From contig JAQUKT010000001.1 in NCBI GenBank assembly GCA_028718945.1, forward strand, positions 11,997-75,996: DNA of 64,000 nt. Direction: 5' to 3'. Under the pieces are notes generated by a model that made no database searches, was not told the DNA's origin, and worked only from the letters and a program-made list of their open reading frames with translations. The stretch comes from Actinomycetota bacterium (GTDB lineage: Bacteria > Actinomycetota > Geothermincolia > Fen-727 > JAQUKT01). Both the position numbers and the translations under genes were made by a program. Below, one piece after another: positions 6,271-37,630 of this stretch; position 1 is the first letter of the stretch, and each line of letters begins with the position of its first letter.

Positions 6271-6306
6271 TCTTAGACCTCCTAAAGAGTTTTCCTGTCT
6301 TCCAAA

Positions 6307-7284: not shown

Positions 7285-7314
7285 CCATCTATTCCTTTTT
7301 TTCGCAGATCACCA

Positions 7315-12273: not shown

Positions 12274-12390
12274 GTTGACAAGAAGAGTAATGCCGAGAAT
12301 TCCATAGAACTCGGGATCGAGCCTTATTATGAGTAAGAATGCTTCCTTAAAAGCCCTTAATATACTTTCCAGTTTTTCCTACCGCAACGC

Positions 12391-13265
12391 TTACAATTTG
12401 AGGCCGCCAAGTCCACGAGTTTGCTCCTTGGCACATGGGTGAAAAAGTTGAAATCCTTCTTTTTCGTATTTGCCGATGAGCTCCTGACCCTTTTCACCCG
12501 TAACGAACCAGGCGAACTCTCCTGCCCCCTCCGTATTGAGTTTGAGATCTGGAAATTCTTTGGGATTTACAACTATTACACTATACGGATTTACGAGAGA
12601 TTTATCTTTCTCGACAAGAATCTTGAGTTTAAGGGATTCACGCATGAAAATGAATGTCGCCCTGTCGCTTAGAGTGTAGCCCTGCTTTTCGGATGTCATC
12701 GCAAGAACTTCTCCCATTCCCTGTCCTGCCTCAACATACCAGGGCTTTCCATGGGGGTCTATTCCCGCTTCCTTCCACAGAGATAGTTCTTTCTTGTTGG
12801 TTCCCGAATCATCGGCGCGGCTCACGAATGTTACTCCCCTTAAGGCAATCTTTTTGAACGCTTCCACAGCATTCGTTCCTCCCTTTATATTAGCAGTGTC
12901 GCTCTTGGGTCCAACTATGACAAAGTCATTCCACATGATCTCAACCCTTTCCAGTCCATATCCTTTCTTTACGAATTCCTCCTCTGAGGACTTCGCGTGA
13001 ACAAGAAGAGCATCAGCATCGCCTTTCTCGCCCATCTTGAGAGCCTCGCCAGTCCCTACTGCAATAGTTCTTACTTTCACGTTGCAATCCTTTTCAAAGG
13101 CCGGTAGCAAAACATCCAGCAAGCCAGAATCCTGGACACTGGTCGTAGTGGCAAGAATAAGATTGCCCGGCTCTCCGCAACCAAAAAAAGAAGCGGAGAA
13201 AGGAATAGGAGAATAGCAAGAACAAAAACTGAACTCGACCTTTGCACTCTCTTTATTTTATACAT
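12391..13265 (-). CDS. tupA: Tungstate-binding lipoprotein TupA-like, reading frame interrupted at A7 homopolymer (13183-13189)
   Basis: Mature part carries the TupA-type ATTTSVQDSGLLDVLLPAFEK motif. An SD-preceded ATG at 13265 encodes signal peptide MYKIKRVQRSSSVFVLAILLFLSPLLF in a different frame. Adding one base to the homopolymer restores a ...LLFFGCGEPG lipobox fusion. Confidence 0.65.
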
Positions 13266-13575
13266 CCCTCCTCCTTCAAATGACAAAAGAAAATCTACAT
13301 TTTCTCAATGAAACTGACCACAATATAGAGCGCTCTTTCGGAGGTGGTCTTCTATCAAAAGTGCAGTAATTTCTTTGATTCAAACATAAAAAACCCGCCG
13401 TGCAAAAAGGCAGGTTTATCATCTTACCTCTCCTTTCCAAACACGGGAGGCACAACCGTTTCCAGTTGCACCCCATCGCCCTCGCGCCATTGCAGATGCT
13501 TTAGGCGCTTCAGGTCGGAGATATTTTCGTTAAACTAACAAAAACATGGAAAAATGTCAACAAACAAATCAAAGC

Positions 13576-14130: not shown

Positions 14131-14162
14131 ATTATCGGGGGTGACCCCATTATCGGGGGCGC
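14127..14162. repeat. 18-nt tandem duplication (CCCCATTATCGGGGGYGM x2) at the element end, overlapping the 3' end of the downstream gene
   Basis: Direct tandem repeat seen in the sequence. It produces the artefactual DPIIGGDPIIGG ORF on the plus strand. Confidence 0.6.
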
Positions 14163-15238
14163 ACTGGCTGGGGGGGTGCCTGAACCCTTATCGGCCAGGG
14201 GCGAAAAGAAATCAGAAAGGCTACGGCAGCCGCTATCGAAAAAACTATTAGCCAGTCCTTGGTGGGAAATTCATGCACAAAAGTCTCGAGCGCATTCTTG
14301 AAATTCTCAATTGTTGGAATGTTGATAATCCTTATGGCCGGGAACCAGACGGTAAGCATATACATAAGTATCCTGCCCGCACTAACGAAAATCATGGAAA
14401 GACCAAGAGCAATCCCTCCAAGGACAAAATTGAAGTGTCTTCCAGAACCAAGAACCACCGCAACGCCAACCACTATGCCAAGTGCCCAGCCGGTAATACC
14501 ATATTCTTTATGTGTCCACCATGCTATGCCCGCATAAGCACCGGAGCAAAGCGCGCCAGCGAGGGCTCCGTACAAAACCGATTTCAAATAAGACGGCTCG
14601 GGCGTTATTTCACCATCATACTCATCGGGCATCTGCATTGATACTATACCCTCACCGGGGATTCTCCTCTTTTTTCTTGGCGCATGCTTTCGTCTTGCTT
14701 CAACCCCCTCAAAAGGCTGTGTTGTGGGGAAACCTTCGGCGGTCAATACCGCCTTCTCTCTCATATCAACAGGAACCGCTCTTCTCTTTTCGCTTTCCGG
14801 AATAACCGGGGGGGCCTTCATAGGTGTTTCCCCAACTATTGCCGCTTGAGGGTGCTCCTTTGCAGACCTCCTTGCTCTTCTCCTGCCACCTTCAAGGTCG
14901 CCCCAGAACATGTCGGCTTCGAGGCTTTTTTCGGGAACACTTTCCATGGGTTTGGTTTCTTTCACAACAGGAACAGTTCCAGAAGGCTTCTCTATTGGCT
15001 TTCTTAAAGCCTTTTTCTCGACCTTCTTTTTCGCCTCTTCTTTGACCCCCGATGCATTTTCCTTCTTAGGCTTTTCCCTCACAACCATCCGGGCGGCAAT
15101 TTTTTCAAGTTCAAGCCTGTGGCATTCGGGGCAGTAGTTGGTGTCACGTGTTTCTATCACGCACTTCCTGCAGAAGTTCGCACCGCACGCCAAGCACGTA
15201 AGTTCAGCCTCGTTACCTGGATGCCATTTGCATTCCAA
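14150..15238 (-). CDS. Zinc-ribbon membrane protein (N-terminal CxxC zinc ribbon, Pro/Lys/Glu-rich linker, C-terminal 4-TM domain)
   Basis: N-terminal CKWHPG...CLACGANFCRKC...CPEC cysteine array, a low-complexity charged middle, and a hydrophobic C-terminal ~150 aa. Last gene of the sigma/repeat-protein block. Confidence 0.55.
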   Translation of the reverse strand: MECKWHPGNEAELTCLACGANFCRKCVIETRDTNYCPECHRLELEKIAARMVVREKPKKENASGVKEEAKKKVEKKALRKPIEKPSGTVPVVKETKPMESVPEKSLEADMFWGDLEGGRRRARRSAKEHPQAAIVGETPMKAPPVIPESEKRRAVPVDMREKAVLTAEGFPTTQPFEGVEARRKHAPRKKRRIPGEGIVSMQMPDEYDGEITPEPSYLKSVLYGALAGALCSGAYAGIAWWTHKEYGITGWALGIVVGVAVVLGSGRHFNFVLGGIALGLSMIFVSAGRILMYMLTVWFPAIRIINIPTIENFKNALETFVHEFPTKDWLIVFSIAAAVAFLISFRPWPIRVQAPPQPVRPR

Positions 15239-15506: not shown

Positions 15507-18023
15507 TCAAGGGTAAGGCTCGACAGCCGCACTTTTGAAAACACCGTAGCAGTCCGCCCGGTCAATTGGGAATTGTTTTTCGATCAAGGTTTTGAATGTA
15601 ACCCACCTCAACGCGCTTGCCGGATTGCTACCGGATGTATTCATGTTGAGCTGATCTACAAGCTTATGTAGGGCACCCAAACCGGGTTCGGTTCCAAGGG
15701 CAATCATCATCTGGCGAGAAGCTTCAAGTGCCTCGGGCGTTTTCATAGCATCTGCGATATTCTGCATTGCAGTGGGGTTATTCGCAAGCAGGTTAACAAT
15801 TGACATCACAAAGTTTCTTCCGTTAGTCGATTCAAGTATCGATGCAGTAGCCGCAGGATCCCCCTTGCCCATCAAATCACCTATGAAATCGGGGCAAGAG
15901 TTAACAATATTTGCGACTAATTGCGGGTCAATTCCGCCCTCCGCAACCGGTTTTACCAGGTCATATAACATTCCCTTGGGCCCGCCGGGTTCATAGCTCT
16001 TCTTGGTTGCCCTATTCATCGCTTCGTTCAGGGCACCAGCATCGAGATTTGCAATCAGGTTTGTGATAAACGTCTGGTTGTTGTTGATAATCGAGACGAC
16101 AAGGTTTGTGCTTATGCCAAAATCCGGGTCCATTAGTGCCTTCGTAAAATACTTCGTTGCCTCAGGCGATAAAGCCATCTGAGCCGGGTCCATGTTCTTG
16201 ATTACGCCAGAAATAAGCGCTTCTCCAGCATCCGTATTTATGGCGTTGCATAGAACAACGGGATTAAGGTTTGAAAGAAGCCCATCGATGAATGCTCCAT
16301 TGTTATTCACAATATATGCAACAGCCTTAGGGTCAAGAGCCTTCATCATCTTATCGGTGTTTTTCGGGTCTTGGGCGTTTACCACATTTGCTATGACCTT
16401 CGGATTGAGGAATGAGATGAGATTCGTGACAAACTCAATGTTGTTGTTAATGGCAACGGCAGTCCCGCTTGGGTCGAGTTTACCCATGAGTCTTGTAATG
16501 AATGTCTCATTGTTGTTAACCACACCCGCAATTACCTGAGGATTAAGCTTCGAAACCACATTTATCATGAAACTCGGGTCGCCATTCATACTTGAAGCCA
16601 GAGCATCGGCATCCAGTTTCCCTATCAACTTCGTGATAAACGCTCCATTGGCATTCACAACTCCAGCGATAACCGCCGGGTCGAGCCTTGCTAACATTCT
16701 GCTTGTCCACTCCCAGTTCTTGGCGCTCATCTCGTTTATTTTGTCTATATCGAGATACTTGAGAACACCCTTCAAGAATCCTGGATTTGCGTTTATTGCA
16801 ACAGCAGTTCCAGCCATACTCATGTTTCCCATCAAGCCCGACAGGAAAGCGCCATTTGCATTTACCGCATTTGCAATAGGCGTCGGATCAAGTTTTGCAA
16901 GGACCTGACACATCATCTCGGTATTGCTTGAAACTGCCCGTATGAGATCCGTGGAAAGATAACCGACAAGCGAACTTATGAATGGAGCCGAATTGTTCAA
17001 TATGCCCGCTATAACCCCGGGATCCAAATAACCTATCAACTTGGTCGTAAAATCGCTCGTTGTTCCTGTATTTTTCGCAAGTCCTGCAGGGTCCATCTTC
17101 GATATCAATCTCGTGAGAAATGCCTGATTGCTCCCGATTGTAGCAATGAACTCCGGACTTATGTTCATTGCGACATCGTATGTAAATTTATTTGTTTCAG
17201 GAGTTGACATCGAGAGCTGGTCGGGGTCCATATAGGACACAAGTTTCGTCAAAAACGCCTGATTTCCGTTTACCACTCCTGCAATAACTGACGGGTCGAG
17301 ATAACCCATAAGGTCCCGAATCATGTTCACATTACTTGCCATTCCAGCGCTCATACCTTCAGCGTCGATTTTTCCAAGGAGTTCAGTTATCCATGCTCCG
17401 TTGTTGTTGACAACCCCCGCTATTGTATCCGGACTCAGATATCCAACAAGCTCACTTGTAAATGTCGGGTCTGCATTCATGGCCTCAGCGGTAGTCGCGG
17501 GATCCGTATATCGAACAACCTCAACGAGGAAATCTCCATTTGCGTTTATCGCATCCGCGATAACTTTTGCGTTGAGATTTCCCACCAGAGAAGCGATGAA
17601 AGGCCCTGCCTTGTTTACGATTTCCGCGGTGATTTTCGGGTCCCCATTAGCCATCATTTCGTTTATGAACTTCTCGTTTTTATTTACAGCCTCAGCAATT
17701 ACCTTTCCATCGATGTAGCCCAGTAAATCCGAAATCCATTCGGGATTCTCGTTTACCGCGATTGCAGTTCCCTTGGGGTCTGAATACTTCATTACCTCAT
17801 TTATGAACTCAGGGTTATCATTTATCGCCTCGGCAACCGCCTTGACATCAAGAGAGCGAAGCATTGCAGCGGTTCCCTTGGGATTGCTGCTCATCTTTCC
17901 AATCATCTTACCAAGAGGGCTTCGGGTTGGAATGAAACCAACAGCGCCAACTGCCGCAAGTGCAACAACTACAATTAAGACCACCGCATTTACCAATGTT
18001 TGAATGCCCTTGTTATAGATCAT
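15507..18023 (-). CDS. Membrane-anchored 23-residue-repeat protein, paralog 1 (about 30 repeats, consensus LDPxVIAxAVNxNxxFIxxLIxx)
   Basis: N-terminal TM helix, conserved PLGKMIGKM segment, then periodic DPxVIAxxVNxN repeats across 838 aa. Low-complexity antisense ORFs occur throughout. Confidence 0.7.
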   Translation of the reverse strand: MIYNKGIQTLVNAVVLIVVVALAAVGAVGFIPTRSPLGKMIGKMSSNPKGTAAMLRSLDVKAVAEAINDNPEFINEVMKYSDPKGTAIAVNENPEWISDLLGYIDGKVIAEAVNKNEKFINEMMANGDPKITAEIVNKAGPFIASLVGNLNAKVIADAINANGDFLVEVVRYTDPATTAEAMNADPTFTSELVGYLSPDTIAGVVNNNGAWITELLGKIDAEGMSAGMASNVNMIRDLMGYLDPSVIAGVVNGNQAFLTKLVSYMDPDQLSMSTPETNKFTYDVAMNISPEFIATIGSNQAFLTRLISKMDPAGLAKNTGTTSDFTTKLIGYLDPGVIAGILNNSAPFISSLVGYLSTDLIRAVSSNTEMMCQVLAKLDPTPIANAVNANGAFLSGLMGNMSMAGTAVAINANPGFLKGVLKYLDIDKINEMSAKNWEWTSRMLARLDPAVIAGVVNANGAFITKLIGKLDADALASSMNGDPSFMINVVSKLNPQVIAGVVNNNETFITRLMGKLDPSGTAVAINNNIEFVTNLISFLNPKVIANVVNAQDPKNTDKMMKALDPKAVAYIVNNNGAFIDGLLSNLNPVVLCNAINTDAGEALISGVIKNMDPAQMALSPEATKYFTKALMDPDFGISTNLVVSIINNNQTFITNLIANLDAGALNEAMNRATKKSYEPGGPKGMLYDLVKPVAEGGIDPQLVANIVNSCPDFIGDLMGKGDPAATASILESTNGRNFVMSIVNLLANNPTAMQNIADAMKTPEALEASRQMMIALGTEPGLGALHKLVDQLNMNTSGSNPASALRWVTFKTLIEKQFPIDRADCYGVFKSAAVEPYP

Positions 18024-18064
18024 CTTTTAAGCTCCTGTGAACTTGTCAGTTCAATCCCTCCAAA

Positions 18065-20527
18065 TCAAAACGGACCCACTGGCTGACCAGCTGTCGTGCA
18101 AAGTCGAGCATCAACAATCTGGGTCCACCCCTCAATGTTAATCAAGCCCAAAAGCTGCAGCTGGCCAAAACTCCATATCTTCGTTATTGCATTGTCCTCG
18201 TGATGCCCGGTAGGTCCATGTATTACTTCCACTATGGTTTGTGGTGATATTCCGCCCGCGTTTTTGTTCAATAGCCCACTGATGAAGTTCCCGCTTTGTT
18301 CAAGTATGGGCGCTGTTCCATCCGGGTCCATACTTGCCATCAATGAACTTATGAAGTTTGTGATATCGGGTGCATCTTCAAGAATAGTCATGAGAATATT
18401 TGGGTCTATCCCTTGAGGAGGCGGAGCGAGCATCGCTTCCATCATTTCAGGATGCGCCCCCATCGCTTGAGCAAGAACATCGGTATCAAGATAACCAAGA
18501 AGTTTCTGAATCATCGGGATAACAGCCGGATTGTTGTTGAGGGTATCGGTGATGTCCGCGGTGTTTGAAAGCTCTGACATCTTAGCGATGAAATCTCCAT
18601 TTAGATTTATTGCGTTGGCTATGACAGCGGGATTCATATGACTCACCAAGTTTGAAATCCAGGTTGCGTTCGTATTCAATAGGTCTGCTATCATGTACGG
18701 GTCAAGGGCACCAGGTTGCAAGAGGCGCTCAACAAAATCGGTGTCGCTCATCTCAATTGAATTCGGATCTATACTTGCTATTACGCCCGTCAGAAATGCC
18801 TGATTGTTGTTTATTGCATAGGTTACTGTTTCTGGCTTTATCTCATGTAACAGACTGGTAATGAACTCCTTGTTCTCATTGATCATCTTTGCGGTTCCCT
18901 TTGGGTCCATTTTGTTCATCAGGTTCGTTATGAATGTCTGATTAGCGTTAACAACGCTTGCAATTACCGCCGGATCAAGATATTTGAGCATATCGCTCAT
19001 CATTTGCGGGTTTGCATTCACCGCGTTGGCAATAACAGTAGTGTTCAGGTTCTTGACCAGATTTGTAATGAATGTTCCATTGGAGTTTACAACCCCGGCT
19101 ATTACCGATGGATAAAGATACTTTGTTATATCAGATGCTGATCCAGTACTCGAATTCACCACAGCGGCAATGACAGCAGGGTCGAGCTTACTCACAAGAG
19201 CAGTCAAGAAATTACCCGACTGGTTGACGCTTTTTGCAGTTGCATCGACGGACATGAGCGGCATCATCTCTCCAATCCAGTTAGTATTAGAATTTACTAT
19301 TCCCGCTATGACCTTTGGGTCAAGCGCCGCAAGAGTTCCAGCCATCAAGTTACTCGTCGCATTCATCGCATTTGCTATCGCAACCGGATTGAGACGCGCT
19401 ATGACATCGGTCAAGAATTTCTCATTCTTCAAAACGGTTACCATCATGTCGGGGTCAGCGTTCCCGCTTGCGGCAACTATGAAATCGATGTTGTTGTTCA
19501 AAACGCTCGCAATAACTGTCGGGTCGAGTGAGTTTATCAAGCCAACCGCAAATCCCCCGATTTGATTCACGAGCCCTCCTATTGAAGCAGGAGAAAGCTT
19601 TTCCATCAACTTCGATGTTGAGGAAGTGTTGTTTACGACGGCGCTCAAAAGCTCAGGGGAAATATTTTCAAGCACGCCGCTAACGGTATTCGCGCTTCTA
19701 TTTACTATTCCCGCTATCACAACAGGGTCGAGTTTCTTTATCAAATTGATGCTCATCTGGGGGTCCTGGCTTGTTGCTCTTGCGATAATCTCTGGATTCA
19801 GTTTCCCCAATAGTTCAGTTATGAAGGGACCATTCTGGTTGACGATATCGGCAATCACATCGAGATTAATGTAGTTTATTACCTCTGAACTTGCGCTGGT
19901 ATTGGAGTTCATCAGGTTCGCTAAAACATCCGTTGATATAAGACCTACCGTCTCGCTGAGGAAAGCCTCGTTTCCGTTTACTGCGTCAGCAATTACCTTC
20001 GGGTCTATGTATGAGGTGACCTTATTCATGAACTCCGTATTGCCCACACCGCTTGTCGCTAATTTTTTCGCGTCAAGCTCACCAATCAGTTCTGTAATGA
20101 ACTTCCCGTTGGCATTTACCGCTCCGGCAATTACCTTCGGGTTCAAGTAATTGAGAAGCTCAACGACGAAATCCGTATTCGCATCCATGCCCTCACTCAT
20201 TGCGGAGGGGTCCATATAACTTATGAGCTCTGTAATCCACTTGCCATTCTTGTTTATAGCATCAGCAATAACTTTCGGGTCGAGAGCGGAAAGGGTTTTC
20301 GACATCATCGTCGGGTCCGCATTCATCGCGTTGGCAAGAACCTTCGGGTCAAGCTGCGAAAGTAAGCCGGATATCAAACCTTTCTGGCTTGCCATCTTTC
20401 CCATCAGCACGCTCAGAGGTGGATTCGAACTGGGTATCATCATGGTCACGCCCAAAATGAGCGATAGCAATAATGCCATAATTATTACTATATTTATAAG
20501 CCCTTGAACTCCTCTTGAAAGTAACAT
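18065..20527 (-). CDS. Membrane-anchored 23-residue-repeat protein, paralog 2
   Basis: 820 aa. Same architecture as paralog 1 (TM helix, PLSVLMGKM segment, repeats of exact 23-residue period). Confidence 0.7.
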   Translation of the reverse strand: MLLSRGVQGLINIVIIMALLLSLILGVTMMIPSSNPPLSVLMGKMASQKGLISGLLSQLDPKVLANAMNADPTMMSKTLSALDPKVIADAINKNGKWITELISYMDPSAMSEGMDANTDFVVELLNYLNPKVIAGAVNANGKFITELIGELDAKKLATSGVGNTEFMNKVTSYIDPKVIADAVNGNEAFLSETVGLISTDVLANLMNSNTSASSEVINYINLDVIADIVNQNGPFITELLGKLNPEIIARATSQDPQMSINLIKKLDPVVIAGIVNRSANTVSGVLENISPELLSAVVNNTSSTSKLMEKLSPASIGGLVNQIGGFAVGLINSLDPTVIASVLNNNIDFIVAASGNADPDMMVTVLKNEKFLTDVIARLNPVAIANAMNATSNLMAGTLAALDPKVIAGIVNSNTNWIGEMMPLMSVDATAKSVNQSGNFLTALVSKLDPAVIAAVVNSSTGSASDITKYLYPSVIAGVVNSNGTFITNLVKNLNTTVIANAVNANPQMMSDMLKYLDPAVIASVVNANQTFITNLMNKMDPKGTAKMINENKEFITSLLHEIKPETVTYAINNNQAFLTGVIASIDPNSIEMSDTDFVERLLQPGALDPYMIADLLNTNATWISNLVSHMNPAVIANAINLNGDFIAKMSELSNTADITDTLNNNPAVIPMIQKLLGYLDTDVLAQAMGAHPEMMEAMLAPPPQGIDPNILMTILEDAPDITNFISSLMASMDPDGTAPILEQSGNFISGLLNKNAGGISPQTIVEVIHGPTGHHEDNAITKIWSFGQLQLLGLINIEGWTQIVDARLCTTAGQPVGPF

Positions 20528-20581
20528 CCGAGTTTCCTCCGGTTATCCCTTCCTCCTGTCTTCCTCCTGTTAAAGTTTCCT

Positions 20582-23350
20582 CTAAAAACCTGGTGGCTTA
20601 GCCGTCGAAGAGTACTTCGTCCACAGATTCTCATCCATAGTAACCCACCCAATAAAAGTGTGAGCTTTTGCCGTCGTCGTAAGGCGCAAATTCTTCATTA
20701 GGGTTGGGTCATCCTCGAGCGTCGAGCACAGTACAATCGGGTCAAGTTTGGCAAGCAATTCGGGCAGAAGCTGCTGGTTCGAGTTTATTGCATCGGCAAT
20801 TACCCGCGGATCGAGATTCGCAAGCAACCGACCTGTCATCTCGGGATGCTTCCCCATCGCCTCAGCAAGAACAGCCGGGTCGAGGTAACCCGGACTTATA
20901 AGCGTTTTAATCAAATCCATGGTATTAGGTTGGTTAATAAGATCAGCCGTAATGCTCGGGTCACTGGTTCCCATGAACTCGGCAATGAAACTCCCGTTCG
21001 CGTTTATCGCATTTGCTACCACCTGAAGTGCGCTTGGATTAGCATCGAGCGCGGCAATTATCCTCCCCACAAAATCATTCGACCCCTGCTCGAGATGAAG
21101 TTCATGCTGCACATCCACCATTGCCTGTACATCGGTGCTTGCTATCATCTCACGAATAAACCCGGGATTTTCGTTTACAGCAGATGCAATCCTTTCGGGG
21201 TCGAGCCCTGAAATCAAATTCGAAAGGAATGCTTCGTTGTTGTTTACTGCCTCACCTATGACCTCGGCATCGAGGTTGTTCATCAAAGCAGTTGTGAAAG
21301 CGGTTGCTTCCTCACTTGCCCTGGTAAGAACAGCCGGGTCAAGGTATTTGATGACATTCTTCAAGAAAACCTTGTTCGCGTTTACCGCGGACGCTATCGC
21401 TGCCGGCGATAAGTATGGAAGCATCTTTGAGGTTGAATCGGGATTCGCGTTCATTGCGTTTGCAATTACCTGAGCGTTGAGATATTTCAAAAGATTTTTT
21501 ATGAACGTCGCGTTCGAGTTTATTATTGCCGCTGTAGTTGATGGGTCTCCTTTGCTCATTACTTTCGAAATGAATGGTCCATTCGAGTTTATGACACTTG
21601 CAAGCATGGCTGGATTCAGTTTCCCAACAAGAGCGGTTATGAAGGGTCCATTCTTGTTTACTATTTTCGCGGTAACTTGGGGGTCGCTCTTCGACATCAT
21701 CTTCTTCAAGAACTCGCCTGAATCGTTTACCACGCCAGCAATAACACTCGAGTCGAGATTGTCGAGAAGTTCCTTTGTCGAGTTTGGATTCGCACTCATT
21801 GCATCCGCAATCACCTTCGGATTCAGTTTTGGCAATAGGGAATTTATAAACGCGACATTCCGGTTGAGAATTGTTGCCGTTGCGGCAGGGTCCCCGGCAC
21901 TCATAACTTTTATGAGGAATTCCTGATTGTTGACTATCGATGCGACAAGGTCTGGCGATATTCCGCCAACAACCGCATAAACGAAATCCTCCTGTTGTTT
22001 GTCCATTGGCTTGGTCAGCTCAGCCGGGTCGAGATTCCTCACAAGTTCAGTCATGAACGCACCGTTTGCATTGAGCGCGCCGGCAATCGCAGCCGGGTTG
22101 AGCGCGCCAATTACCTTGAGCATGAATCCCTGGTTGTTTATGATATCCGCCATCACTGTCGGGTCTGCCGAGTTCACTACCTGAACGATAGTACTCACAT
22201 TTCCATTTATTATCCCTGCTATCACATTAACATTGAGATGAGAAACAAGCCTTGCTATCCAGTCTCCATTCGCATTCACCGCGTTCGCGATAGGAGTCGG
22301 ATCTGAGCTTCGCATCATTGCCATCAGGAAAGCTTCGTTCGAATTCACTACATTCGCTATCACGGTTGGATCAAGCCTTCCCAATAGAGCGCCAATGAAT
22401 GGACCATTGTTATTGACAATATATGCTGTTATCTTGGGGTCTGAATACTGCATCATCGCCTGAAGGAATGGACCGTTTTCATTCACAACATCAGCAACAA
22501 CAACAGGCGATATGTAGGAGATTAGATCAGTAATGAATTTGCCGTTCTCGTTTACTATATAGGCAATCACCTGTGGGTCGAGATATTTCATCAGGTCATT
22601 GCTCATTTCGGGATTTGCTGTTATTATCTCTGCAAGCATGGCTGGGTCGAGATTCCTGATAATATCTGCTATGAGTTTTCCATTTTTGTTTATCGGATAA
22701 GCCAAAGCTTTCGGCTCAAGCAGAGAAATAAGCTTCGTGCTCATCTCTGGATTCGCACCCATCGCATCAGCAATAACCTTTGCAGGAAGTGCGGAAATCA
22801 GTTCAGAAATAAATTCGGGGTTTTCATTCAGTGCCTTCGCCGTTGCCTTCGGATCTCCGCTTGTCATAATTCCCTCGAGGAGATATCTGTGATTCGCGAT
22901 TTCTCCGATCATTTTTCCCAAAGGAGTTTTATCTACCGGAACAATCGCGAATCCAGCAAATAGAATGGTGAAAAGAAGTCCTATTATCACCACAACATTC
23001 ACAAGTGTCTGAAGGTGTGGACCAAGTAGAAAGCCCCCTCCTGGTTGCGGCGCCCGTGCCTTTGCCCTGACCTGAGTAATTTCCGGCCTCGGAGCAACTT
23101 TGGGTGCAATCTGAACTTTTGCTTCGGCGCCAAGAGCGAGTACTTTCTGCCTGTACTCCTGCCTTGCGCGTGCCTGCATCGAAGGATGTTCGACAGAACT
23201 TATAGTTAGCGCTGTCTTGAGGATGAACTCTACCTCCGCTCTATCCTTTTGCTTAGCAAGGAGACTCTCGAGCTTTGTTCTATCCTTCGAAACTGCATCA
23301 AGAAGCTTATCAATCAGGTTGGCTGAACTATTGTCATCCAAGCTAACCAC
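20582..23350 (-). CDS. 23-residue-repeat protein, paralog 3, with ~130-aa cytoplasmic N-terminal domain and single TM (anti-sigma-factor-like architecture)
   Basis: 922 aa. Helical charged N-terminal domain, then TM (LVNVVVIIGLLFTILFAGFAIV), then PLGKMIGEI and the repeat array. Immediately downstream of the ECF sigma gene. Confidence 0.65.
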   Translation of the reverse strand: MVSLDDNSSANLIDKLLDAVSKDRTKLESLLAKQKDRAEVEFILKTALTISSVEHPSMQARARQEYRQKVLALGAEAKVQIAPKVAPRPEITQVRAKARAPQPGGGFLLGPHLQTLVNVVVIIGLLFTILFAGFAIVPVDKTPLGKMIGEIANHRYLLEGIMTSGDPKATAKALNENPEFISELISALPAKVIADAMGANPEMSTKLISLLEPKALAYPINKNGKLIADIIRNLDPAMLAEIITANPEMSNDLMKYLDPQVIAYIVNENGKFITDLISYISPVVVADVVNENGPFLQAMMQYSDPKITAYIVNNNGPFIGALLGRLDPTVIANVVNSNEAFLMAMMRSSDPTPIANAVNANGDWIARLVSHLNVNVIAGIINGNVSTIVQVVNSADPTVMADIINNQGFMLKVIGALNPAAIAGALNANGAFMTELVRNLDPAELTKPMDKQQEDFVYAVVGGISPDLVASIVNNQEFLIKVMSAGDPAATATILNRNVAFINSLLPKLNPKVIADAMSANPNSTKELLDNLDSSVIAGVVNDSGEFLKKMMSKSDPQVTAKIVNKNGPFITALVGKLNPAMLASVINSNGPFISKVMSKGDPSTTAAIINSNATFIKNLLKYLNAQVIANAMNANPDSTSKMLPYLSPAAIASAVNANKVFLKNVIKYLDPAVLTRASEEATAFTTALMNNLDAEVIGEAVNNNEAFLSNLISGLDPERIASAVNENPGFIREMIASTDVQAMVDVQHELHLEQGSNDFVGRIIAALDANPSALQVVANAINANGSFIAEFMGTSDPSITADLINQPNTMDLIKTLISPGYLDPAVLAEAMGKHPEMTGRLLANLDPRVIADAINSNQQLLPELLAKLDPIVLCSTLEDDPTLMKNLRLTTTAKAHTFIGWVTMDENLWTKYSSTAKPPGF

Positions 23351-23485: not shown

Positions 23486-24052
23486 TCAGAGGAAACTTGA
23501 AGGACTCGACTGGGAAAGTATTCTGTTTAGGGCAAAAAGACCTCTTTTCTGAGTGGATTTGACTGCACCAACTGATACACCCATAATCTCTGCAATCTGA
23601 GCGTTAGAAAGATTATCGATAAACTTGAGAACTATTACTTCGCGCTGGTTGTGAGTGAGTCTTTGAAGGGCAAGATAGAGTCTTTCACTATCGAGGTCTG
23701 CCATTGCAGTTTCCATTGGATTGCCTTTCGCAGCAGGAGTAGGCGACTGCTCGTCAATAGGAACATTCTCCCTTCTTGACTCACTTCTGAAAAAATCAAC
23801 AGCGAGATTGTGCGCAATTCTGAAAAGCCATGACGAAAATGATACATCACGAGTCTCGTAGTATTGAATATTCTCGAACGCTTTCAAGAAGGTCTGTCCT
23901 GTAAGGTCCTGTGCGTCATTCTGATTTCCAACCTTGTAATAAATATATCTGAATATCTGATCAACATATTCATCGTAAAGCTCCCCAAATGCCTCCGGGT
24001 CGCGTTCTTTTGCTCTCTTCACAAGGTTTTGAATAGCGCTCTCTCTGGACAT
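23486..24052 (-). CDS. ECF-type RNA polymerase sigma-70 family factor
   Basis: 188 aa. Region 2 (DLTGQTFLKAFENI...WLFRIAHNLAVDFFR) and region 4 HTH (NAQIAEIMGVSVGAVKSTQKRG). Confidence 0.85.
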   Translation of the reverse strand: MSRESAIQNLVKRAKERDPEAFGELYDEYVDQIFRYIYYKVGNQNDAQDLTGQTFLKAFENIQYYETRDVSFSSWLFRIAHNLAVDFFRSESRRENVPIDEQSPTPAAKGNPMETAMADLDSERLYLALQRLTHNQREVIVLKFIDNLSNAQIAEIMGVSVGAVKSTQKRGLFALNRILSQSSPSSFL

Positions 24053-24317: not shown

Positions 24318-27300
24318 TCACCAGAGAGGAAACCCTATCACGTCATGCCCACCAGTCCAGCCATAGAAATCAAAATACATCGGTCGTTCGACGATTATTC
24401 CTTTATTATCTTCCCCGAGCGCAACCACTTTGGCGCCAGCATCCTTGCCCCAGCCAATAGAACCGTTCACATCAACCGTCACTCTTGCGTGACCGGGCAC
24501 AGCTAATTTCTGCTCCTTGTTCTCCCCACCGGTCAGCATGTAGGTTATTCTTACCTCGGCTTCCTTGTCACCCGGGTTCTGGATACTCAACCATTCCTGG
24601 AATCCTTGCATAGTTGTTCCCTCTGCAAAGTACCACTGAGAAGCAGTTGAATTTGCACCTATTACATCATGCCCCCCGGTTATGCCAACATAATCGAAGT
24701 AAATCGGGCGCTCGGCAATTATCGGCTGACTCGAGGTAATGCGCGCGGAAACATCATGCTCCCTTTCAACTGCACCATGAACATCTACTGTAACCCTGGA
24801 AGTCCCCAATACACTCAAGCTCTGAGCCTTGGTTTCACCAGTTTCAAGCATGTATGTAATCTTCACATCAGCCACATAGGTTCCAGGATTCAACAGGCAA
24901 ATCCATTCATCGAATCCCGAACGAGTGGTGCCCTCGGCAAAATACCAGGTCTCTGAAGGCGAAGTCGCGCCCATGCAGTCGTGTCCGCCAGTCCACATAT
25001 TTTTGTAGTTGAAATACATCGGTCGCTCGGCAACAATGCCTACATCCGAGGTAACCTTCGCGGCGCAATCAACTCCCGGTCCAAGGAACTGCTTGGCACT
25101 GATTGTTCTCCTCGACTTCGCAGGAACTTTAACGCCCTGAGCTCTTGTTCCTCCTCCGGTAAGCATATACTTGATTTCAACCGCCGCTTCATGTTCAGAA
25201 GGATTTTGGAGGCATATCCATTCCTCAAACTCGTCTCTGGTATTACCCTCAGCGAAATACCATTCTTTCGATGCACCAACAGCCCCCATGACATCGTGTC
25301 CGCCTGTCCATACTCCGTTATAGTTGAAATACATGGGTCGCTCGGCAACTATTTGTTTGTCAGAATCCACCCTTGCAGAAACATCCTTCTCTTTGCCAAC
25401 CACATCCTCCACGCGCACGGTCAGCCTGCTTTTAGCCGAGACCTCGAGCTCATGAGTCTGGTTGGGACCCTCCGAGAGCATGTAAGTGATGGTCACGCTT
25501 GCAGCAGTATCATTGGGGTTCATCAAGCAAATAAATTCCTGGAACCCCTGCCTCGTGGTCCCTTCTGCGAAGTAGAAAGTCTTGGGAAGAGTAACCGAAA
25601 ATTGGATTCCGTTCGATGTTCCAACTGGAGTTGTAATTGTCACATTACCCGTTTTTGCCCCCATAGGAACTTTTGCCCTTACGCTTGAATCAGACCATGA
25701 TTCCACATCAATGGCATCAACATTAGCGAACCTAACCTTGCTCGTGCCCTGCTCATCACCAAAGTTCTTCCCGCTCACAGTAACAGAGATTCCAGCAGGA
25801 CCGTTCAAAGGTGAAACCGATGAAATGTATGGACCTGCGGTGAACTGAACAGAATTGCTTTGCCCACTCGGCGTTGTAACTATTACTCCCCCGCTTGTCA
25901 CAGCCGCTGGAACTCTTGTCTCTATCTTCGTTTTCGACCAGGATTTTGCCTTTCCGGCATCCACACCCGCAAACGTTACCTTGCTCGAGCCCTGTGTCTC
26001 GCCGAAAGTGAATCCATTTATTGTGACAATCGTGGTTCCCGGTATCCCGCTCGATGGAGAAATAGATGTTATCTTTGGCAGAACCTTGAAGGATTTTTGG
26101 TTGCTTTCAACATCGTTGACAGTAACAATGACCGAGCCACTGGTTGCTTTTGCCGGAACACTTACAGTTATCTTAGTTGATGTCCAGCCTTCCACCTGAG
26201 CAGGTTCCCCATTGAATTTCACCGTGTTCGAACCCTTTGAAGCGCCAAACCCGGTTCCATTGATTGTTACGGAATCGCCAACTCTTCCTTCGGATGAACT
26301 CAACCAGTCGATAACCGGTGTAACGTTGAAGGGAATCAAATTGCTTTCTCCGTAAAGAGTCTGAACCTTCAATTGACCGCTTGTTGCATTCTCGGGAACA
26401 TTCACCACAATCCTGTTGTAGCCCCAGGTTGATGCGGTTCCAGAATCCACATTGTTGAAATATACCTTCCCATTTGCGCCCTGCACTTCCCCGAATCCAG
26501 AGCCATCTATGGTGACTGAATCCCCCACTTTTGCAGTTGTCGTTGAAGTTCCCGAAATCCAGGGGGTTATGCTCAAAACCGGGTCTTGCGTGCTTGCACT
26601 CGAGTTTCTCAAAACCCGAACAGGTCCAGTCCATGGCTGGAAAACCGCGGGGTCATCAGGAATCTTGAACTTGATATTTGTGTTATTCCATGAGACCATA
26701 AAGGCTTCCGGAACCATCTCGAGGCTCACATTTCCATCTTCATCCATCTTCTGCATTTTCACGCAGTTGTTAGGGTCATAAGGAAGTGGACTTGTCCCGA
26801 AATTCCCGCCATTTATCTCGATTTCATCACCGGTCTTGCCCGAGTCGGGTGAGAGTTTCTCAATCTTCGGGATGACATTGACATTCAATGGTGGTGCGCT
26901 CTCCTTTCCACCCGCTGTAACCGTCACTGGAACACCAATTCCTGGCTCTATATCAGGGGGAAGAGTGAACTTGATTTCCGTACGCGTCCAGGACGTGAAG
27001 CTCCCATCTGGAATCTGCCCGCCATTTACCTTTACATTGTTCGTATCGGTGCTTCTATTCCCTGAACCAGGGTCATTACCAAAACCGGTTCCGGTAATTG
27101 TAACCGCTGTTCCGTATGACATTTGCGTTGGGCTCACGTTAGTAATATTCGGAAGAACTGTAAAGGTAACACCATTTGAACTCCCCCCGTCATGAACAAC
27201 ATGAACATTTCCAGTAATGGCATTGTTCGGAACAACCGCTTTTATCTCGGTGCCGGTCCATGTATTAATTGATGCCTCCGTTTCACCACCAAAATATACA

Positions 27301-30300
27301 TGACCGTTCACGCTTGGCTGGCCCGCGCCGAAACTCGAGCCATTTATGGTTACCTCGGTGCCCGTTACCCCATTGCCTGGAACAAGTGGAGGAGTTATTA
27401 CCGGAGCGGCAAGGCTCTGGCTACAAACCTGAATTCTCCCAAAACTGCCGCATGAATATGCCTTTATCCTGTCAGTATCCCAGATGCTCGAGATGCCCAT
27501 AAGAGACCTGTTGACGCCCGTAGCGCTTTCAATTTCACCCCATGTTCCGCCTCCATTTGAAGTATAAAGCGCGCAGGCGGGCTCAGTTACAGCCGGGCTG
27601 GCTCCAACAATGAGGCCATTTCTTGTATCAGAATGCCCCGGGGCGCCAAAGGAAACTCCAAAAAGTTCATCGCTTACAGGACCTTCCTGAAAAACCCAGT
27701 TGTCTCCACCATCATCCGAGTACCAGATTGAGCCTCCTTCTCCAACTGCCCAGACATCGCTTTTACCGCCCATTGAGACATCATTGATTTTCACAGAGCC
27801 AGCGGGGGGATTTGCAGGAGTCTGCCAGGTTGCTCCTCCATCATCCGTCCACCTCACGCTTTCCGTGCTTCCCGCGGTTCCCCCAACCGCAACTCCACAT
27901 TCTTCGTCGAAGAAATCAACCGCTCTTAAATTCGCGGTTGGATTGCTCTCCTGTTCTGTCCATGTATCCCCTGAATCCGCGGAAATCCATATATGCCCGT
28001 TATCACCAACAGCCCATGCGTGAGTTGAATCTATGAAATCAACAGAGCTCAAATTATTTGAAACAGGCGGACTTGTTGCAGGTGACCATGTTTGACCGCC
28101 ATTGGAAGTTCTTCTGACAGTTGCGTTATCTCCAACCGCAATGCCTCGATAGACACCACCATCAAGATACATTGACACATCATTGAGATTCTTGTCTGTA
28201 ACGCTATCAGAGGGCATCCAGGTTGCCCCCGCGTCGGTCGTATAAAGAACAACTCCCTTTTCCCCGCAGGCAATTCCATTGTTTGCATCCGCAAATGACA
28301 TTCCATTGAGGTTATTCGCGGGGCCCTGAAGGAAGTTCCAGTTTGCGCCCTTATTCGTGCTACCAATTATCGTTCCATAATCCCCGGAAGAAAAGGCCCT
28401 TGAGAATGCTGATTCAAACCAGGAAGCGCGAAGATCGTTCCTGTTGAAACTCGACCCTGCGTCCCAGTTTGCTCCACCATCGCTCGTATAGTAAATATTA
28501 CCATCCGAGCCAACCGTTACTCCCTCGAAATTTGGTATAGCTCCATTGTAATCAATCGAGATATCCCTCAGGTTAACCGTTCCGGGAACAGCTCCCTGAG
28601 GATTCCAGGTTACACCGTCCCAGCATAGAACGGTTCCGGAATCTCCAGCCGCCCAGACATTATTCGAGTCATAGGCATCAATGCCATAAAGAGGAGGAAT
28701 CCCAGCAGCAAGCTCCTGATTGAAGGTTATGCCGCCATTTGTTGTGTGACAGATGATTCCTCTGGAAGAATCCTCGAAGCCAACCTCGAAGCCAACTGCG
28801 TAGAAATTGGAGGAATCAACAAAATCGGAAGCGAAAAGAGCGGAGGGAGATGGTATCTCGGAAATTGTATTCCACGTATTACCATCTGTGCTCCTTATTA
28901 TTGTCCTTACTTCTCCCACAGCCCAGCACTGATAGTTCACTCCATCATGAAGGGCAGAAACCGCGTTCAAACGATTGTTTGTCTGTGAGGTTTGCTCCGC
29001 CCAGTTATCGCCGTTATTGGTGCCCCCATATACCTTCCCACCATCCCCAACAACCCACGCGTAGTTATTCGTGGAATCTCCAAACTCAACTCCTCTCAAG
29101 TTATTGGCAGTTGAAGGAGGAGCCGCAGGGTCAGCCCAGTTCTGACCTCCGTTCGTGGAACGAATTACCCGTCCGTTTTCACCGCAGGCAATTCCTTGAG
29201 TTAATGAAACAATGTCAACACCAAAAAGGTCATCCGTATGCCCGCTCGAGGAGGCATTCCAGTTTGCTCCATTATTGTTTGTGAACCTTACGACGCCATT
29301 TGAACCAACTGTAGAGCCCGTATCATTTGAACCATTGTTACAAAGTGAAATTCCATAGAGGTCTTCAGTTGTCCCCGAAGTTTGCGTTTGAAACGCTACG
29401 TTATAGTGAAGTATGAATCCGGAGGAACCACAGAACCAGCCCTCGATAGCAGTAGGAAATGATATGTCATAAATTGTGTTCGTTGCTTGAAGGACGCTCA
29501 ATGTGTTCCATGTCGAGCCATCGGAAGTACTTATGACCAGCCGCCCGTCACCAACCGCGAATCCCGCAGGTCCTGAATACATCGAGATTCCCCTCAATTC
29601 AAGAGATGTCCCGCTCGTTTGTGGACCAACAGTTCCATTAAGATAGCGATAGAGCATCCCAGCCTGACCGCAAATCCATCCATTGCTCGAGTCGGTGAAA
29701 TCAAGAGCGAGGAAATCGTTTGTCGTTTTTTGAACCCCGGAATAAAGCGCCCATGAAGAACCCCCACTGTTTGTCCAAGCCATGAGCCTGCTCTCACCAG
29801 CAATGACTCCAGCACTCGCGTCCGTGAAATCAATCCCGTACAGGTTATTCGATGTCGGACTCGTTATTACTGACCATGTGCCATCCCTTCCTACGATGGT
29901 TCCATCTTGACCGCAGGCAAAAGCATTGTTCGAGGATACTGCGGAGACCGATTCGAGATTTTTCGTGGTGCTGGAATTCTCTTTTGTGAAAAGACCATTT
30001 CTCGCAAGATAAACAATTCCAGAATTTCCAACCACCCATCCGTATTTAGAAGCAGTATCAAAATCAATTCCGTTCAAGTTGTCCGTTCCCTCCAAGGATG
30101 AGATTTTCGTCCATCCTGGACCCGTTGAATCGTACTTCCACATCGTCCTGTTCATACCGGAAGCAAAAGCAAGTGAAGCACTTGAGAACGATATCCCCGT
30201 AAGGTCCCTTGTTCCCGAATCCATACTGACTGGAGAGCCAAATGATCCACCCGTGATGGGAACCCTGTAGCCCTCGGTTCCGCTTCCGCCAACCGCAAAG

Positions 30301-37628: not shown

Positions 37629-37630
37629 AG

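What the first reader, a model, noticed from the sequence alone, without database searches (positions are those of the whole stretch)
15507..23350. Unrecognised 23-residue alpha-helical repeat (consensus L-D-P-x-V-I-A-x-A-V-N-x-N-x-x-F-I-x-x-L-I-x-x) forming ~700-800-aa arrays
The period is exactly 23 residues across more than 80 repeats in the three proteins. A strong repeat and a weaker repeat alternate, giving a 46-residue super-repeat. The composition (A/V/I/L/N rich) and pattern suggest a two-helix solenoid. The period does not match TPR (34), ankyrin (33), Sel1 (36), PPR (35), LRR (beta, 24) or canonical HEAT/ARM. I do not recognise it as a named family. The repeat composition also produces long artefactual antisense ORFs on the plus strand.
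Basis: seen in the sequence. Interest (0 to 1): 0.65.

Follow-up and report, generated by a model that had tools for sequence, protein, structure and literature searches.

The report
Membrane-anchored 23-residue helical-repeat protein triplet
Three neighbouring genes of an uncultured actinobacterium encode membrane-anchored proteins built almost entirely from about 28 copies of a 23-residue two-helix unit that no curated repeat family matches; they always come as a matched-length trio next to giant secreted proteins and probably form a cell-envelope stalk or scaffold.

Summary
The repeat is real. Three minus-strand genes (A 15507-18023, B 18065-20527, C 20582-23350) each encode one N-terminal membrane helix followed by about 700 residues of a 23-residue unit, L-D-P-k-V-I-A-x-A-V-N-a-N-G/P-x-F-I-t-e-L-l-g-y. 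The lag-23 self-similarity lies 15-20 sd above shuffles. AlphaFold2 models each unit as two short helices stacked into an alpha-solenoid (pLDDT 90 for eight units).

The family is rare: 232 of 1.84 billion cluster representatives. All 28 genome loci found come from uncultured Actinomycetota, and the MAGs named below phylum are mostly Geothermincolia. In most complete loci it is a co-oriented tandem triplet with matched lengths (about 780-850 or 960-1005 residues), usually beside secreted DUF5719 proteins.

In this clade a BldN-like ECF sigma gene precedes paralog C, which carries an extra cytoplasmic N-domain laid out like the anti-sigma factor RsbN.

Best reading (inferred, confidence about 0.4): a three-paralog, membrane-anchored envelope stalk or scaffold, with C doubling as anti-sigma factor. 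I class it as a new repeat family and a new variant of the alpha-solenoid class.

The parts
20582..23350 (-). Paralog C (922 aa, GTG start). It has an N-terminal helical domain plus low-complexity linker of about 110 aa, presumed cytoplasmic; one TM helix (aa 111-142); 28 units of the 23-residue repeat (aa 165-868, nt 20747-22858); and a non-repeat tail ending in ...KPPGF.
   Evidence: ORF and translation. Units. Hydrophobic segment. The N-terminal extension and its V-V-x-L-(N/D)-(E/D)-(D/N) start are conserved in the orthologs aligned (L001, L005, L012); phmmer also matches the extension in L006 and L008. First position of the triplet in clade I.
18065..20527 (-). Paralog B (820 aa). It has a short N-terminus, one TM helix (aa 5-35), 29 units (aa 59-755, nt 18263-20353) and a non-repeat tail ending in ...PVGPF.
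   Evidence: AF2 models. Homologs P0001-P0011.
15507..18023 (-). Paralog A (838 aa). It has a short N-terminus, one TM helix (aa 5-36), 27 units (aa 58-743, nt 15795-17852) and a non-repeat tail ending in ...VEPYP.
   Evidence: Third position of the triplet in clade I.
23486..24052 (-). ECF sigma factor, closest to the BldN family. It lies directly upstream of paralog C and is probably the first gene of the operon.
   Evidence: Pfam Sigma70_r2 and r4_2. Best NCBIfam match is TIGR02952, BldN family, at 176 bits, below its cutoff of 206. Best PDB match is 6dxo_A, sigma-BldN, E 1.2e-29. It holds the same position in L001, L005, L006, L008 and L012.
14150..15238 (-). Downstream 362-aa protein. It has an N-terminal Cys-rich zinc-finger-like motif, a long charged linker and three C-terminal hydrophobic helices. 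It is a conserved neighbour in clade I.
   Evidence: Translation. Weak DUF7564 hit. Hydrophobic segments. Orthologs follow the triplet, or the triplet plus a giant gene, in L001, L006, L012, L027 and L029.
24318..32774 (-). Giant secreted protein (2818 aa). It has a Sec-type signal peptide, BNR/Ycf48-like propeller repeats, six TIG domains and four DUF5719-like modules at the C-terminus, with no C-terminal anchor. Its DUF5719 part is the most widely conserved neighbour of the triplet.
   Evidence: Pfam. N- and C-terminal sequence and hydropathy. Its aa 2150-2815 region is matched by genes flanking the triplet in 17 fetched loci (16 places; L002 and L025 are the same contig).

Best explanation
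A, B and C are three ancient paralogs of one previously undescribed protein family.

Architecture of each protein:
- One N-terminal membrane helix carries conserved polar residues (Q-x-x-[V/I/T]-N).
- A conserved P-x-[K/R]-x-P-x-G-x-x-x-G-K motif follows the helix.
- Then come about 28 stacked 23-residue helix-turn-helix units forming an alpha-solenoid rod.
- A short non-repeat tail ends the protein.

Within the unit, the conserved residues are structural. D2-P3 caps and starts helix 1. N11 and N13 form the tight turn. V5, I6, A7, A9, V10, F16, I17, L20 and L21 form the core. The outward-facing positions vary.

Most likely mechanism (inferred):
- The three proteins are co-expressed and inserted N-in/C-out.
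- They associate side by side through their membrane helices and matched-length arrays.
- Together they form a membrane-anchored stalk or scaffold some tens of nanometres long. The length is estimated from about 1 nm per solenoid unit and was not measured.
- The stalk crosses the wall zone and positions or docks the large secreted DUF5719 proteins encoded beside them.

In this clade the first paralog (C) has gained a cytoplasmic N-terminal domain of about 110 residues and sits directly behind a BldN-like ECF sigma factor. It therefore probably also acts as an RsbN-like anti-sigma factor that reports the state of the assembly to transcription.

Shown: the repeat, the predicted fold, the single hydrophobic helix, the rarity and taxonomic range, triplet conservation, length matching and the gene neighbourhood.
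Inferred: the topology, the hetero-complex, the scaffold or spacer role and the anti-sigma role.
For: - Repeat and fold.
- Conservation pattern: structural positions are 0.53-0.88 identical among orthologs, except I17 at 0.41. Variable positions are 0.30-0.44. This fits a scaffold rather than one repeated ligand site.
- Triplet: three co-oriented tandem paralogs occur in most complete loci. Positional orthology is perfect within each clade, 56/56 and 42/42 best hits.
- Age: the paralogs are only 30-33% identical to each other, about as far apart as the two clades (27-29%). The triplication is therefore old.
- Length: the distance from the membrane helix to the C-terminus stays matched. It is 809/813/831 in the window and 779-853 across clade I. 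It is 958-1007 in all three paralogs of clade II. The unit number is stable although tandem repeats usually vary.
- Membrane helix: polar Q and N in the helix and the post-helix P/G motif are conserved in all 36 triplet proteins examined.
- Neighbours: a gene with DUF5719 modules lies next to the triplet in 17 fetched loci (16 places; L002 and L025 are the same contig) and in the window, fused to BNR/TIG domains or to an S8 peptidase. The window's giant protein has a signal peptide and no anchor.
- Anti-sigma part: the sigma factor is BldN-like. C has a 110-residue N-domain and then one TM helix, as RsbN has 117 residues and a TM at 118-139 and is encoded next to bldN (PMC6101532). The N-extension occurs only in the clade that has the sigma gene.
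Against: - No experiment and no multimer model supports a complex.
- Topology is not settled. The charge bias across the membrane helix is weak: about +2.1 on the N side, counting the free N-terminus, against +1.5 on the C side.
- Three loci closely syntenic with the window (L001, L006, L012) have no DUF5719 gene within the fetched flanks.
- One locus (L011) has a single 1268-aa gene rather than a triplet.
- The N-domain of C shows no detectable similarity to RsbN or to any Pfam or PDB anti-sigma domain.
- Matched lengths could partly be inheritance, and orthology between the two clades is scrambled.
- The C-terminal tails are modelled with low confidence.
Confidence: 0.4

Rival explanations
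1. This is a signalling module only. The trio is the extracytoplasmic sensor of the ECF sigma factor. C is the anti-sigma factor, and A and B are co-sensors or modulators. The long arrays detect an envelope or external cue and have no structural role of their own.
For: - The order sigma-C-B-A is conserved in L001, L005, L006, L008, L012 and the window.
- The layout of C resembles RsbN.
- ECF anti-sigma factors commonly carry large extracytoplasmic domains (PMC6101532).
Against: - Clade II triplets (L002, L013, L021-L026) have no sigma gene in the flanks, and their first paralog starts directly at the membrane helix. The ancestral function is therefore independent of a sigma factor.
- Three arrays of about 700 residues with conserved unit number are far more than known sensors need.
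Confidence: 0.2
2. This is a scaffoldin-like docking array. Individual units or groups of units each bind copies of secreted proteins (DUF5719 enzymes or adhesins), as cohesin arrays do in cellulosomes. The paralogs act independently rather than as one rod-like complex.
For: - The triplet is adjacent to DUF5719 proteins that carry different catalytic or binding heads (S8 peptidase, BNR, TIG).
- The variable surface positions are still 30-44% identical among orthologs that are 50% identical overall. That leaves room for position-specific binding sites.
Against: - There is no repeated conserved surface patch, because the conserved residues are the structural ones.
- Strict triplet conservation and length matching are not required by this model.
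- The DUF5719 neighbour is absent from some loci.
Confidence: 0.15
3. This is an accessory of the neighbouring Tad pilus machine, for example an alignment or stator-like component.
For: A divergent Tad operon lies beside the cluster in the window (33317-39382) and in L001, L006, L011 and L012.
Against: - No Tad genes lie within 10 kb in the clade II loci.
- The N-termini are not prepilin-like. The Gly before the hydrophobic stretch is not conserved and there is no Glu at +5.
- Known Tad systems need no such component (established knowledge of Tad/Flp systems).
Confidence: 0.05
4. The arrays are cytoplasmic. The proteins insert N-out/C-in, so the arrays form a membrane-tethered cytoskeleton-like or adaptor solenoid inside the cell.
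For: - The charge bias across the membrane helix is ambiguous.
- HEAT/ARM-like solenoids are typically cytoplasmic, and those are the natural structural matches.
- There are faint sequence echoes of the cytoplasmic FliG and MgtE_N motifs.
Against: - The N-termini of A and B have a short basic n-region followed by a long hydrophobic stretch, which is typical of signal anchors.
- C would then expose its conserved N-domain outside, away from the adjacent sigma factor.
- The conserved neighbours are secreted proteins.
- The arrays contain only 1-4 Cys and are acidic.
Confidence: 0.1

Closest known systems
De novo designed helical repeat proteins (PDB 8eox_D C4HR1_4r; 8ugc_B FD15, 'flat repeat helix-turn-helix-turn')
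   Different: They are artificial and share only 6-7% identity, so there is no evolutionary relation. They are soluble and have no membrane anchor.
HEAT/ARM alpha-solenoids (importin-beta/transportins, SF3B1, beta-catenin, TOG domains)
   Different: - Their units are 37-47 residues with longer helices, and ARM units have three helices.
- No HEAT or ARM Pfam model is hit.
- Those proteins are cytoplasmic or nuclear, whereas these are membrane-anchored and probably extracytoplasmic.
Leucine-rich repeat variant (LRV, Pfam PF01816; Azotobacter vinelandii protein 1LRV)
   Same: It has the nearest period I know of for a helical repeat: 24 residues of alternating alpha and 3-10 helices in a right-handed superhelix. 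It also has an L..L..D....V..A-type motif. This comparison is from memory and is a lead only.
   Different: - PF01816 is not hit, even at E up to 10 on an idealised consensus array.
- Here both elements are modelled as alpha-helices of 8-10 residues.
RsbN, anti-sigma factor of sigma-BldN in Streptomyces (PDB 6DXO; PMC6101532). This applies to paralog C only.
   Same: - It is encoded directly next to a BldN-type ECF sigma factor.
- It is a single-pass membrane protein with a cytoplasmic N-region of about 110-117 residues that begins with a helical part.
- It has a large C-terminal domain of unknown function.
- It shows no similarity to classical anti-sigma domains.
   Different: - No sequence similarity is detectable.
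- RsbN's outer domain is 272 residues and not this repeat.
- RsbN homologs were reported only in Streptomyces.
- Binding to the sigma factor is untested here.
DC-SIGN/DC-SIGNR neck (23-residue repeats in a type II membrane protein)
   Same: It is a type II single-pass protein whose extracellular stalk is a tandem array of 23-residue, largely helical repeats. The stalk oligomerises the protein and projects the C-terminal domain away from the membrane (PMC5275740, title and abstract seen; the rest is from memory).
   Different: It is an unrelated eukaryotic protein with about 7.5 repeats forming a coiled-coil-like tetramer rather than a two-helix solenoid. This is an analogy of use, not homology.
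FliG / MgtE_N ARM-like helical motif
   Same: There are faint sequence echoes. The FliG middle domain reads '...LSYLDPPVAAQIL...' against 'L-x-x-L-D-P-x-V-I-A-x-V-V-N' here. The PDB profile hits to FliG have E 1.1-1.6. MgtE_N scores E 0.13 on A and is precomputed on P0009.
   Different: None of these is significant. They are not recovered by structure search. Those domains have only a few units and are cytoplasmic.

Membership tests
   Scans of A, B and C, of three natural eight- or nine-unit segments and of a consensus array found no repeat family. HTH_69 reaches 29.3 bits for whole protein B, but no stretch passes on its own.
HEAT / ARM (Pfam clan TPR-like) | Unit of 37-47 residues, made of two long helices (HEAT) or three helices (ARM) | tested here: not met
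   The unit is 23 residues, with helices of about 10 and 8-10 residues.
HEAT / ARM (Pfam clan TPR-like) | Match to a HEAT or ARM sequence profile | tested here: not met
   No HEAT, HEAT_2, HEAT_PBS or Arm model is listed at E up to 10.
HEAT / ARM (Pfam clan TPR-like) | Structural superposition on solved HEAT/ARM solenoids | tested here: inconclusive
LRV (PF01816) | 24-residue unit matched by the PF01816 profile | tested here: not met
   PF01816 is not listed in any scan, including the consensus array at E up to 10.
LRV (PF01816) | Alternating alpha and 3-10 helix superhelix, as in 1LRV | tested here: not met
TPR / Sel1 / PPR / ankyrin / LRR | Periods of 34, 36, 35, 33 and 20-29 residues (LRR with a beta strand), with the matching profile | tested here: not met
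   The period is 23 and the model is all-alpha. None of these profiles is hit.
MgtE_N / FliG helical motif | Significant profile or structure match | tested here: not met
XopAD/SKWP effector repeats (NF041399) | 42-residue SKWP repeats and a score above the cutoff of 2000 bits | tested here: not met
   The score is 15.9 bits, E 0.0015, for B only.
RsbN-type anti-sigma factor (paralog C) | Encoded adjacent to a BldN-family ECF sigma gene | tested here: met
   The sigma gene at 23486-24052 lies 135 bp upstream. Its best NCBIfam match is the BldN family (below cutoff) and its best PDB match is sigma-BldN, 6dxo_A.
RsbN-type anti-sigma factor (paralog C) | Single-pass membrane protein with a cytoplasmic N-region of about 117 residues | tested here: met
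   A region of about 110 residues precedes the only hydrophobic helix, aa 111-142. RsbN values are from PMC6101532. The orientation itself is inferred.
RsbN-type anti-sigma factor (paralog C) | Sequence or fold similarity to RsbN(1-91), a three-helix domain | tested here: not met
   Pfam and PDB profile searches with the aligned N-domains gave no hit. The fold was not modelled.
RsbN-type anti-sigma factor (paralog C) | Binds and inhibits its sigma factor | not testable with these tools
   This needs a binding assay or a complex prediction.
Type IV / Tad prepilin-like proteins | Class III signal peptide: Gly at -1, hydrophobic +1, Glu at +5 | tested here: not met
   The residue before the conserved Q-x-x-x-N stretch is G, S, T, P, V, L, I, F or M depending on the protein, and there is no Glu at +5.

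The most novel reading that the evidence does not exclude
The three paralogs form an obligate 1:1:1 heterotrimeric rod whose unit number acts as a molecular ruler. The ruler sets the distance between the cytoplasmic membrane and an outer protein layer built from the DUF5719 giants in Geothermincolia-type Actinomycetota. Distortion or incomplete assembly of this rod is read out mechanically through paralog C, a second and unrelated example of an RsbN-style anti-sigma factor. This would be an envelope architecture and an envelope-to-transcription coupling not described in any cultured bacterium, built on a natural repeat geometry otherwise seen only in designed proteins.
Probability: 0.15. Interest if true: 0.8.

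Novelty: new variant of a known kind. Interest (0 to 1): 0.55.

Why it matters
1. It would add an uncurated repeat family with a very short two-helix unit. No 23-residue helix-turn-helix-turn natural solenoid appears among the solved structures searched. The nearest solved structures are computer-designed repeat proteins, so it is a natural test case for repeat-protein design rules (Asp-Pro helix starts and an Asn-x-Asn turn).

2. The strictly conserved, length-matched triplet next to giant secreted proteins points to an unknown envelope structure in an uncultured, deep-branching actinobacterial class found in hot springs and the subsurface.

3. Paralog C may show that the RsbN style of ECF sigma control, so far reported only in Streptomyces, is older and more widespread in Actinomycetota.

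None of this changes a major paradigm. The function remains inferred.

Tried and rejected
- The search for related loci with the full-length alignment failed because it had no conserved stretch. A four-unit alignment of strong repeats worked instead.
- The afdb50 fold library was not available, so there is no comparison with predicted structures or UniProt descriptions.
- One Pfam call exceeded the size limit.
- The weaker long hits of the exhaustive search (P0064, P0113, P0122, P0124) turned out to be a different repeat of about 22-23 residues, 'x-T-P-x-A-x-S-A-I-A-x-x-x-D-P-T-V-x-L-G-S', attached to Laminin_G_3 or BNR domains. I rejected them as family members.
- A prepilin-like N-terminus is rejected.
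- Functional linkage to the molybdate/tungstate and Moco genes downstream is rejected. A Moco riboswitch at 13414-13532 starts a separate unit, and clade II loci lack those genes.
- Classical anti-sigma domains (zf-HC2, RskA and others) are not found in C.
- The promoter and terminator scans were uninformative, with counts at shuffle level for promoters.
- A DNA-level tandem repeat is absent.
- Literature searches for DUF5719 and for 23-residue repeats found no description of this family.
Full report
**1. The observation**

The stated coordinates hold three consecutive minus-strand ORFs: A 15507-18023 (838 aa), B 18065-20527 (820 aa) and C 20582-23350 (922 aa, GTG start). They are separated by 41 and 54 bp.

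Autocorrelation of each protein peaks at lags 23, 46, 69 and 92. The mean BLOSUM62 score at lag 23 is +0.29, +0.58 and +0.61. In 200 shuffles it is about -0.8 with sd 0.07, so the signal lies 15-20 sd above chance.

A unit HMM built from the proteins gives the following counts:
- It recovers 27, 29 and 28 units, 84 in all.
- 65 of them score 10 bits or more.
- 62 of the 81 steps between successive units are exactly 23 residues.

TRF finds no 69-bp DNA repeat, so the units are old.

The eight plus-strand ORFs of 103-149 aa lie entirely inside the genes, six of them in one antisense phase. The minus-strand genes have homologs elsewhere, so these ORFs are by-products.

The one claim that fails is the regular alternation of strong and weak units:
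- Parity permutation tests give p = 0.10, 0.15 and 0.53.
- Only A has lag 46 above lag 23.

**2. Anatomy**

Each protein has one strongly hydrophobic segment near the N-terminus (A 5-36, B 5-35, C 111-142) and none elsewhere.

The segment begins with a conserved Q-x-x-[V/I/T]-N. It is followed by P-x-[K/R]-x-P-x-G-x-x-x-G-K in all 36 triplet proteins examined.

The arrays cover A 58-743, B 59-755 and C 165-868. A non-repeat tail of about 55-95 residues follows, ending in a Pro-rich stretch, usually with a terminal aromatic residue.

The region after the membrane helix is acidic (pI 4.4-4.7), with about 12% Ala, 10% Asn and only 1-4 Cys.

**3. Fold**

AlphaFold2 on B with a 14-sequence family alignment gives an all-alpha model. 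Mean pLDDT is 69, rising to 80-92 for residues 400-590, and the tail is poorly modelled.

Every unit is a helix of about 10 residues (positions 3-12) and a helix of 8-10 residues (positions 14-23).

An eight-unit segment (B402-585) modelled with in-register segments of the three proteins reaches pLDDT 89.8 and pTM 0.82.

The conserved residues are the ones expected to build such a unit:
- D-P starts helix 1.
- N-x-N makes the turn.
- The hydrophobic positions form the core.

Among orthologs about 50% identical overall, structural positions are 0.53-0.88 identical, except I17 at 0.41. The x positions are 0.30-0.44.

**4. Comparison with known families**

Pfam and NCBIfam give no repeat family. 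I scanned the whole proteins, natural eight- or nine-unit segments and an idealised consensus array.

PF22979 HTH_69 exceeds its whole-protein cutoff for B only (29.3 against 27 bits). It does so by summing partial matches to half of the profile, and no stretch passes on its own.

PDB sequence searches give nothing for B. For the unit profile they give only E 1.1-1.6 hits to the FliG middle domain. These echo weak MgtE_N hits. I treat that as a lead, not a finding.

Structure searches gave these results:
- Foldseek: retrieves HEAT solenoids with TM 0.23 or less.
- 1LRV, the 24-residue LRV repeat, which is the closest period I know of, is not among the 60 best matches of either search.

The afdb50 library was unavailable.

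**5. Distribution**

The word-indexed search of 5.8 billion clusters found 11 relatives. All were unnamed or 'hypothetical', and one came from an Actinobacteria MAG.

The exhaustive profile search of 1.84 billion representatives found 232 proteins at E 0.001 or better and 42 at 1e-30 or better, many of them fragments.

The weaker long hits are a different repeat.

A scan of 185,579 species genomes with the motif VIA[GN][VIA]VN[AS]N gave 28 loci:
- All come from uncultured Actinomycetota.
- The MAGs named below phylum level are mostly Ca. Geothermincolales, Ca. Geothermincola and Ca. Solincola, of the class Ca. Geothermincolia. Two are labelled Acidimicrobiales or Acidimicrobium.

The window itself comes from an 'Actinomycetota bacterium' MAG. 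Its MoaC protein is MDD5747449.1, on a 98.7-kb contig.

**6. Conserved gene organisation**

In most loci with complete flanks the family occurs as three co-oriented tandem genes.

Two clades are visible:
- Clade I: the window, L001, L004-L008 and L012.
- Clade II: L002/L025, L013, L021-L024 and L026.

Within each clade, the best hit of a gene in every other locus sits at the same position in the triplet, in 56/56 and 42/42 cases. Between clades the correspondence is scrambled.

Paralogs within the window are 30-33% identical. That is hardly more than their 27-29% identity to clade II proteins, so the triplication is old.

Even so, the length from the membrane helix to the C-terminus stays matched:
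- Window: 809, 813 and 831.
- Clade I overall: 779-853.
- Clade II: 958-1007 in all three paralogs.

Neighbours:
- A gene containing DUF5719-like modules, homologous to aa 2150-2815 of the window's 2818-aa protein, flanks the triplet in 17 fetched loci (16 places, because L002 and L025 are the same contig). It is fused to BNR/TIG domains or to an S8 peptidase.
- The window's giant protein has a Sec signal peptide, four such modules and no anchor.
- Clade I adds an ECF sigma gene upstream.
- In several clade I loci a 362-aa protein lies downstream. It has a Cys-rich zinc-finger-like N-terminus, a charged linker and three membrane helices.
- A divergent Tad pilus operon lies nearby in the window, L001, L006, L011 and L012, but not in clade II.
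- The Mo/W transporter and Moco genes downstream are a separate unit headed by a Moco riboswitch at 13414-13532.

**7. The sigma link**

The sigma factor's best NCBIfam model is the BldN family, at 176 bits, below the equivalog cutoff of 206. Its best solved relative is sigma-BldN of the RsbN complex, 6dxo_A, E 1.2e-29.

RsbN has these properties (PMC6101532):
- It is encoded next to bldN.
- It has a 117-residue cytoplasmic N-region, one membrane helix (118-139) and a large outer domain of unknown function.
- It resembles no other protein.

Paralog C has the same layout, with about 110 residues before the helix at 111-142. Its N-extension is conserved exactly in the loci that carry the sigma gene. 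Clade II first paralogs start at the membrane helix.

No sequence similarity to RsbN or to classical anti-sigma domains is detectable. The anti-sigma role is an inference from position and architecture.

**8. Mechanism**

My best reading, at confidence about 0.4, has three parts:
- The three paralogs insert N-in/C-out and associate through the polar membrane helices and along arrays of equal length.
- They form a membrane-anchored stalk or scaffold in the envelope that positions or docks the secreted DUF5719 proteins.
- In clade I, paralog C also sequesters the BldN-like sigma factor.

What is shown: the repeat, the predicted fold, the single helix, rarity, taxonomic range, triplet conservation, length matching and synteny.

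What is inferred:
- Topology. The charge bias across the helix is weak, +2.1 against +1.5.
- Complex formation.
- Physical length. The estimate assumes about 1 nm per solenoid unit and was not measured.
- Function.

The rivals I considered:

| Rival reading | Confidence |
|---|---|
| Pure sensor module for the sigma factor | 0.2 |
| Scaffoldin-like docking arrays acting independently | 0.15 |
| Cytoplasmic orientation | 0.1 |
| Tad pilus accessory | 0.05 |

**9. Verdict**

The finding is real and the family appears to be undescribed. No curated model, no solved relative and no paper was found.

It belongs to the known class of alpha-solenoid repeats but differs in several ways:
- its very short 23-residue unit;
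- its geometry, which resembles designed repeat proteins rather than any natural solved protein;
- its membrane anchoring;
- its obligate, length-matched triplet organisation.

I rate it a new variant of a known kind, with interest 0.55.

Noticed in passing
window 13414-13532 (-): A Moco (molybdenum/tungsten cofactor) riboswitch scores 67 bits against a gathering score of 36. It lies upstream of a periplasmic binding protein, an ABC transporter and the MoeA/MoeA-PBP/MoaA/MoaC genes (5785-13122, minus strand). It marks a transcription unit separate from the repeat genes.
   Followed up: partly
window 33317-39382 (+): A Tad/Flp-type pilus operon lies divergent from the giant-protein gene. It encodes a CpaE-like ATPase, TadA, TadB, TadC, an A24 prepilin peptidase and a TadE/G-like protein fused to an NlpC/P60 peptidase domain. 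A second MshEN-T2SSE ATPase lies at 39403-41100 (-).
   Followed up: partly
window 24318-32774 (-): A 2818-aa secreted protein carries Ycf48/BNR-type propeller repeats, six TIG domains and four tandem DUF5719-like modules with the motif W-Y-F-A-E-G-T...I-V-A-E-R-P-M-Y-F. No paper mentions DUF5719. In other loci the module is fused to an S8 peptidase.
   Followed up: partly
window 14150-15238 (-): A 362-aa protein has an N-terminal C-x2-H...C-x2-C...C-x2-C...C-x2-C zinc-finger-like motif (weak DUF7564 hit), a Lys/Glu/Pro-rich linker of about 200 residues and three membrane helices. It is conserved downstream of the triplet in clade I, and longer relatives occur in Geothermincola and Solincola loci.
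   Followed up: partly
proteins P0064, P0113, P0122, P0124 (from, not in the window): Large metagenomic proteins with Laminin_G_3 or BNR domains carry long arrays of a different repeat of about 22-23 residues, 'x-T-P-x-A-x-S-A-I-A-S-T-x-D-P-T-V-V-L-G-S'. No Pfam model matched the repeat regions of these proteins either. They match the family profile only weakly (E 1e-10 to 1e-23).
   Followed up: partly
loci L014-L021, L027-L029: In many MAGs the contig ends within or next to the repeat genes. This suggests that these genes tend to break assemblies, so the family may be under-counted.
   Followed up: no
locus L011 7226-11029; locus L010: L011 has a single 1268-aa family member with about 33 units instead of a triplet. 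In L010 the second and third genes look frameshifted, with Arg/Gly/Pro-rich out-of-frame tails.
   Followed up: no
window proteins A, B, C (all arrays): There is a minor self-similarity signal at lag 12. BLOSUM is about -0.4 to -0.56 against -0.8 in shuffles. This hints that the 23-residue unit may derive from two half-units of about 11.5 residues, or it may simply reflect the hydrophobic pattern of the two helices.
   Followed up: no
window 2512-5035 (+): FakA-like (Dak2) and DegV fatty-acid kinase genes are ordinary housekeeping context. No tRNA genes occur in the 64-kb window.
   Followed up: no
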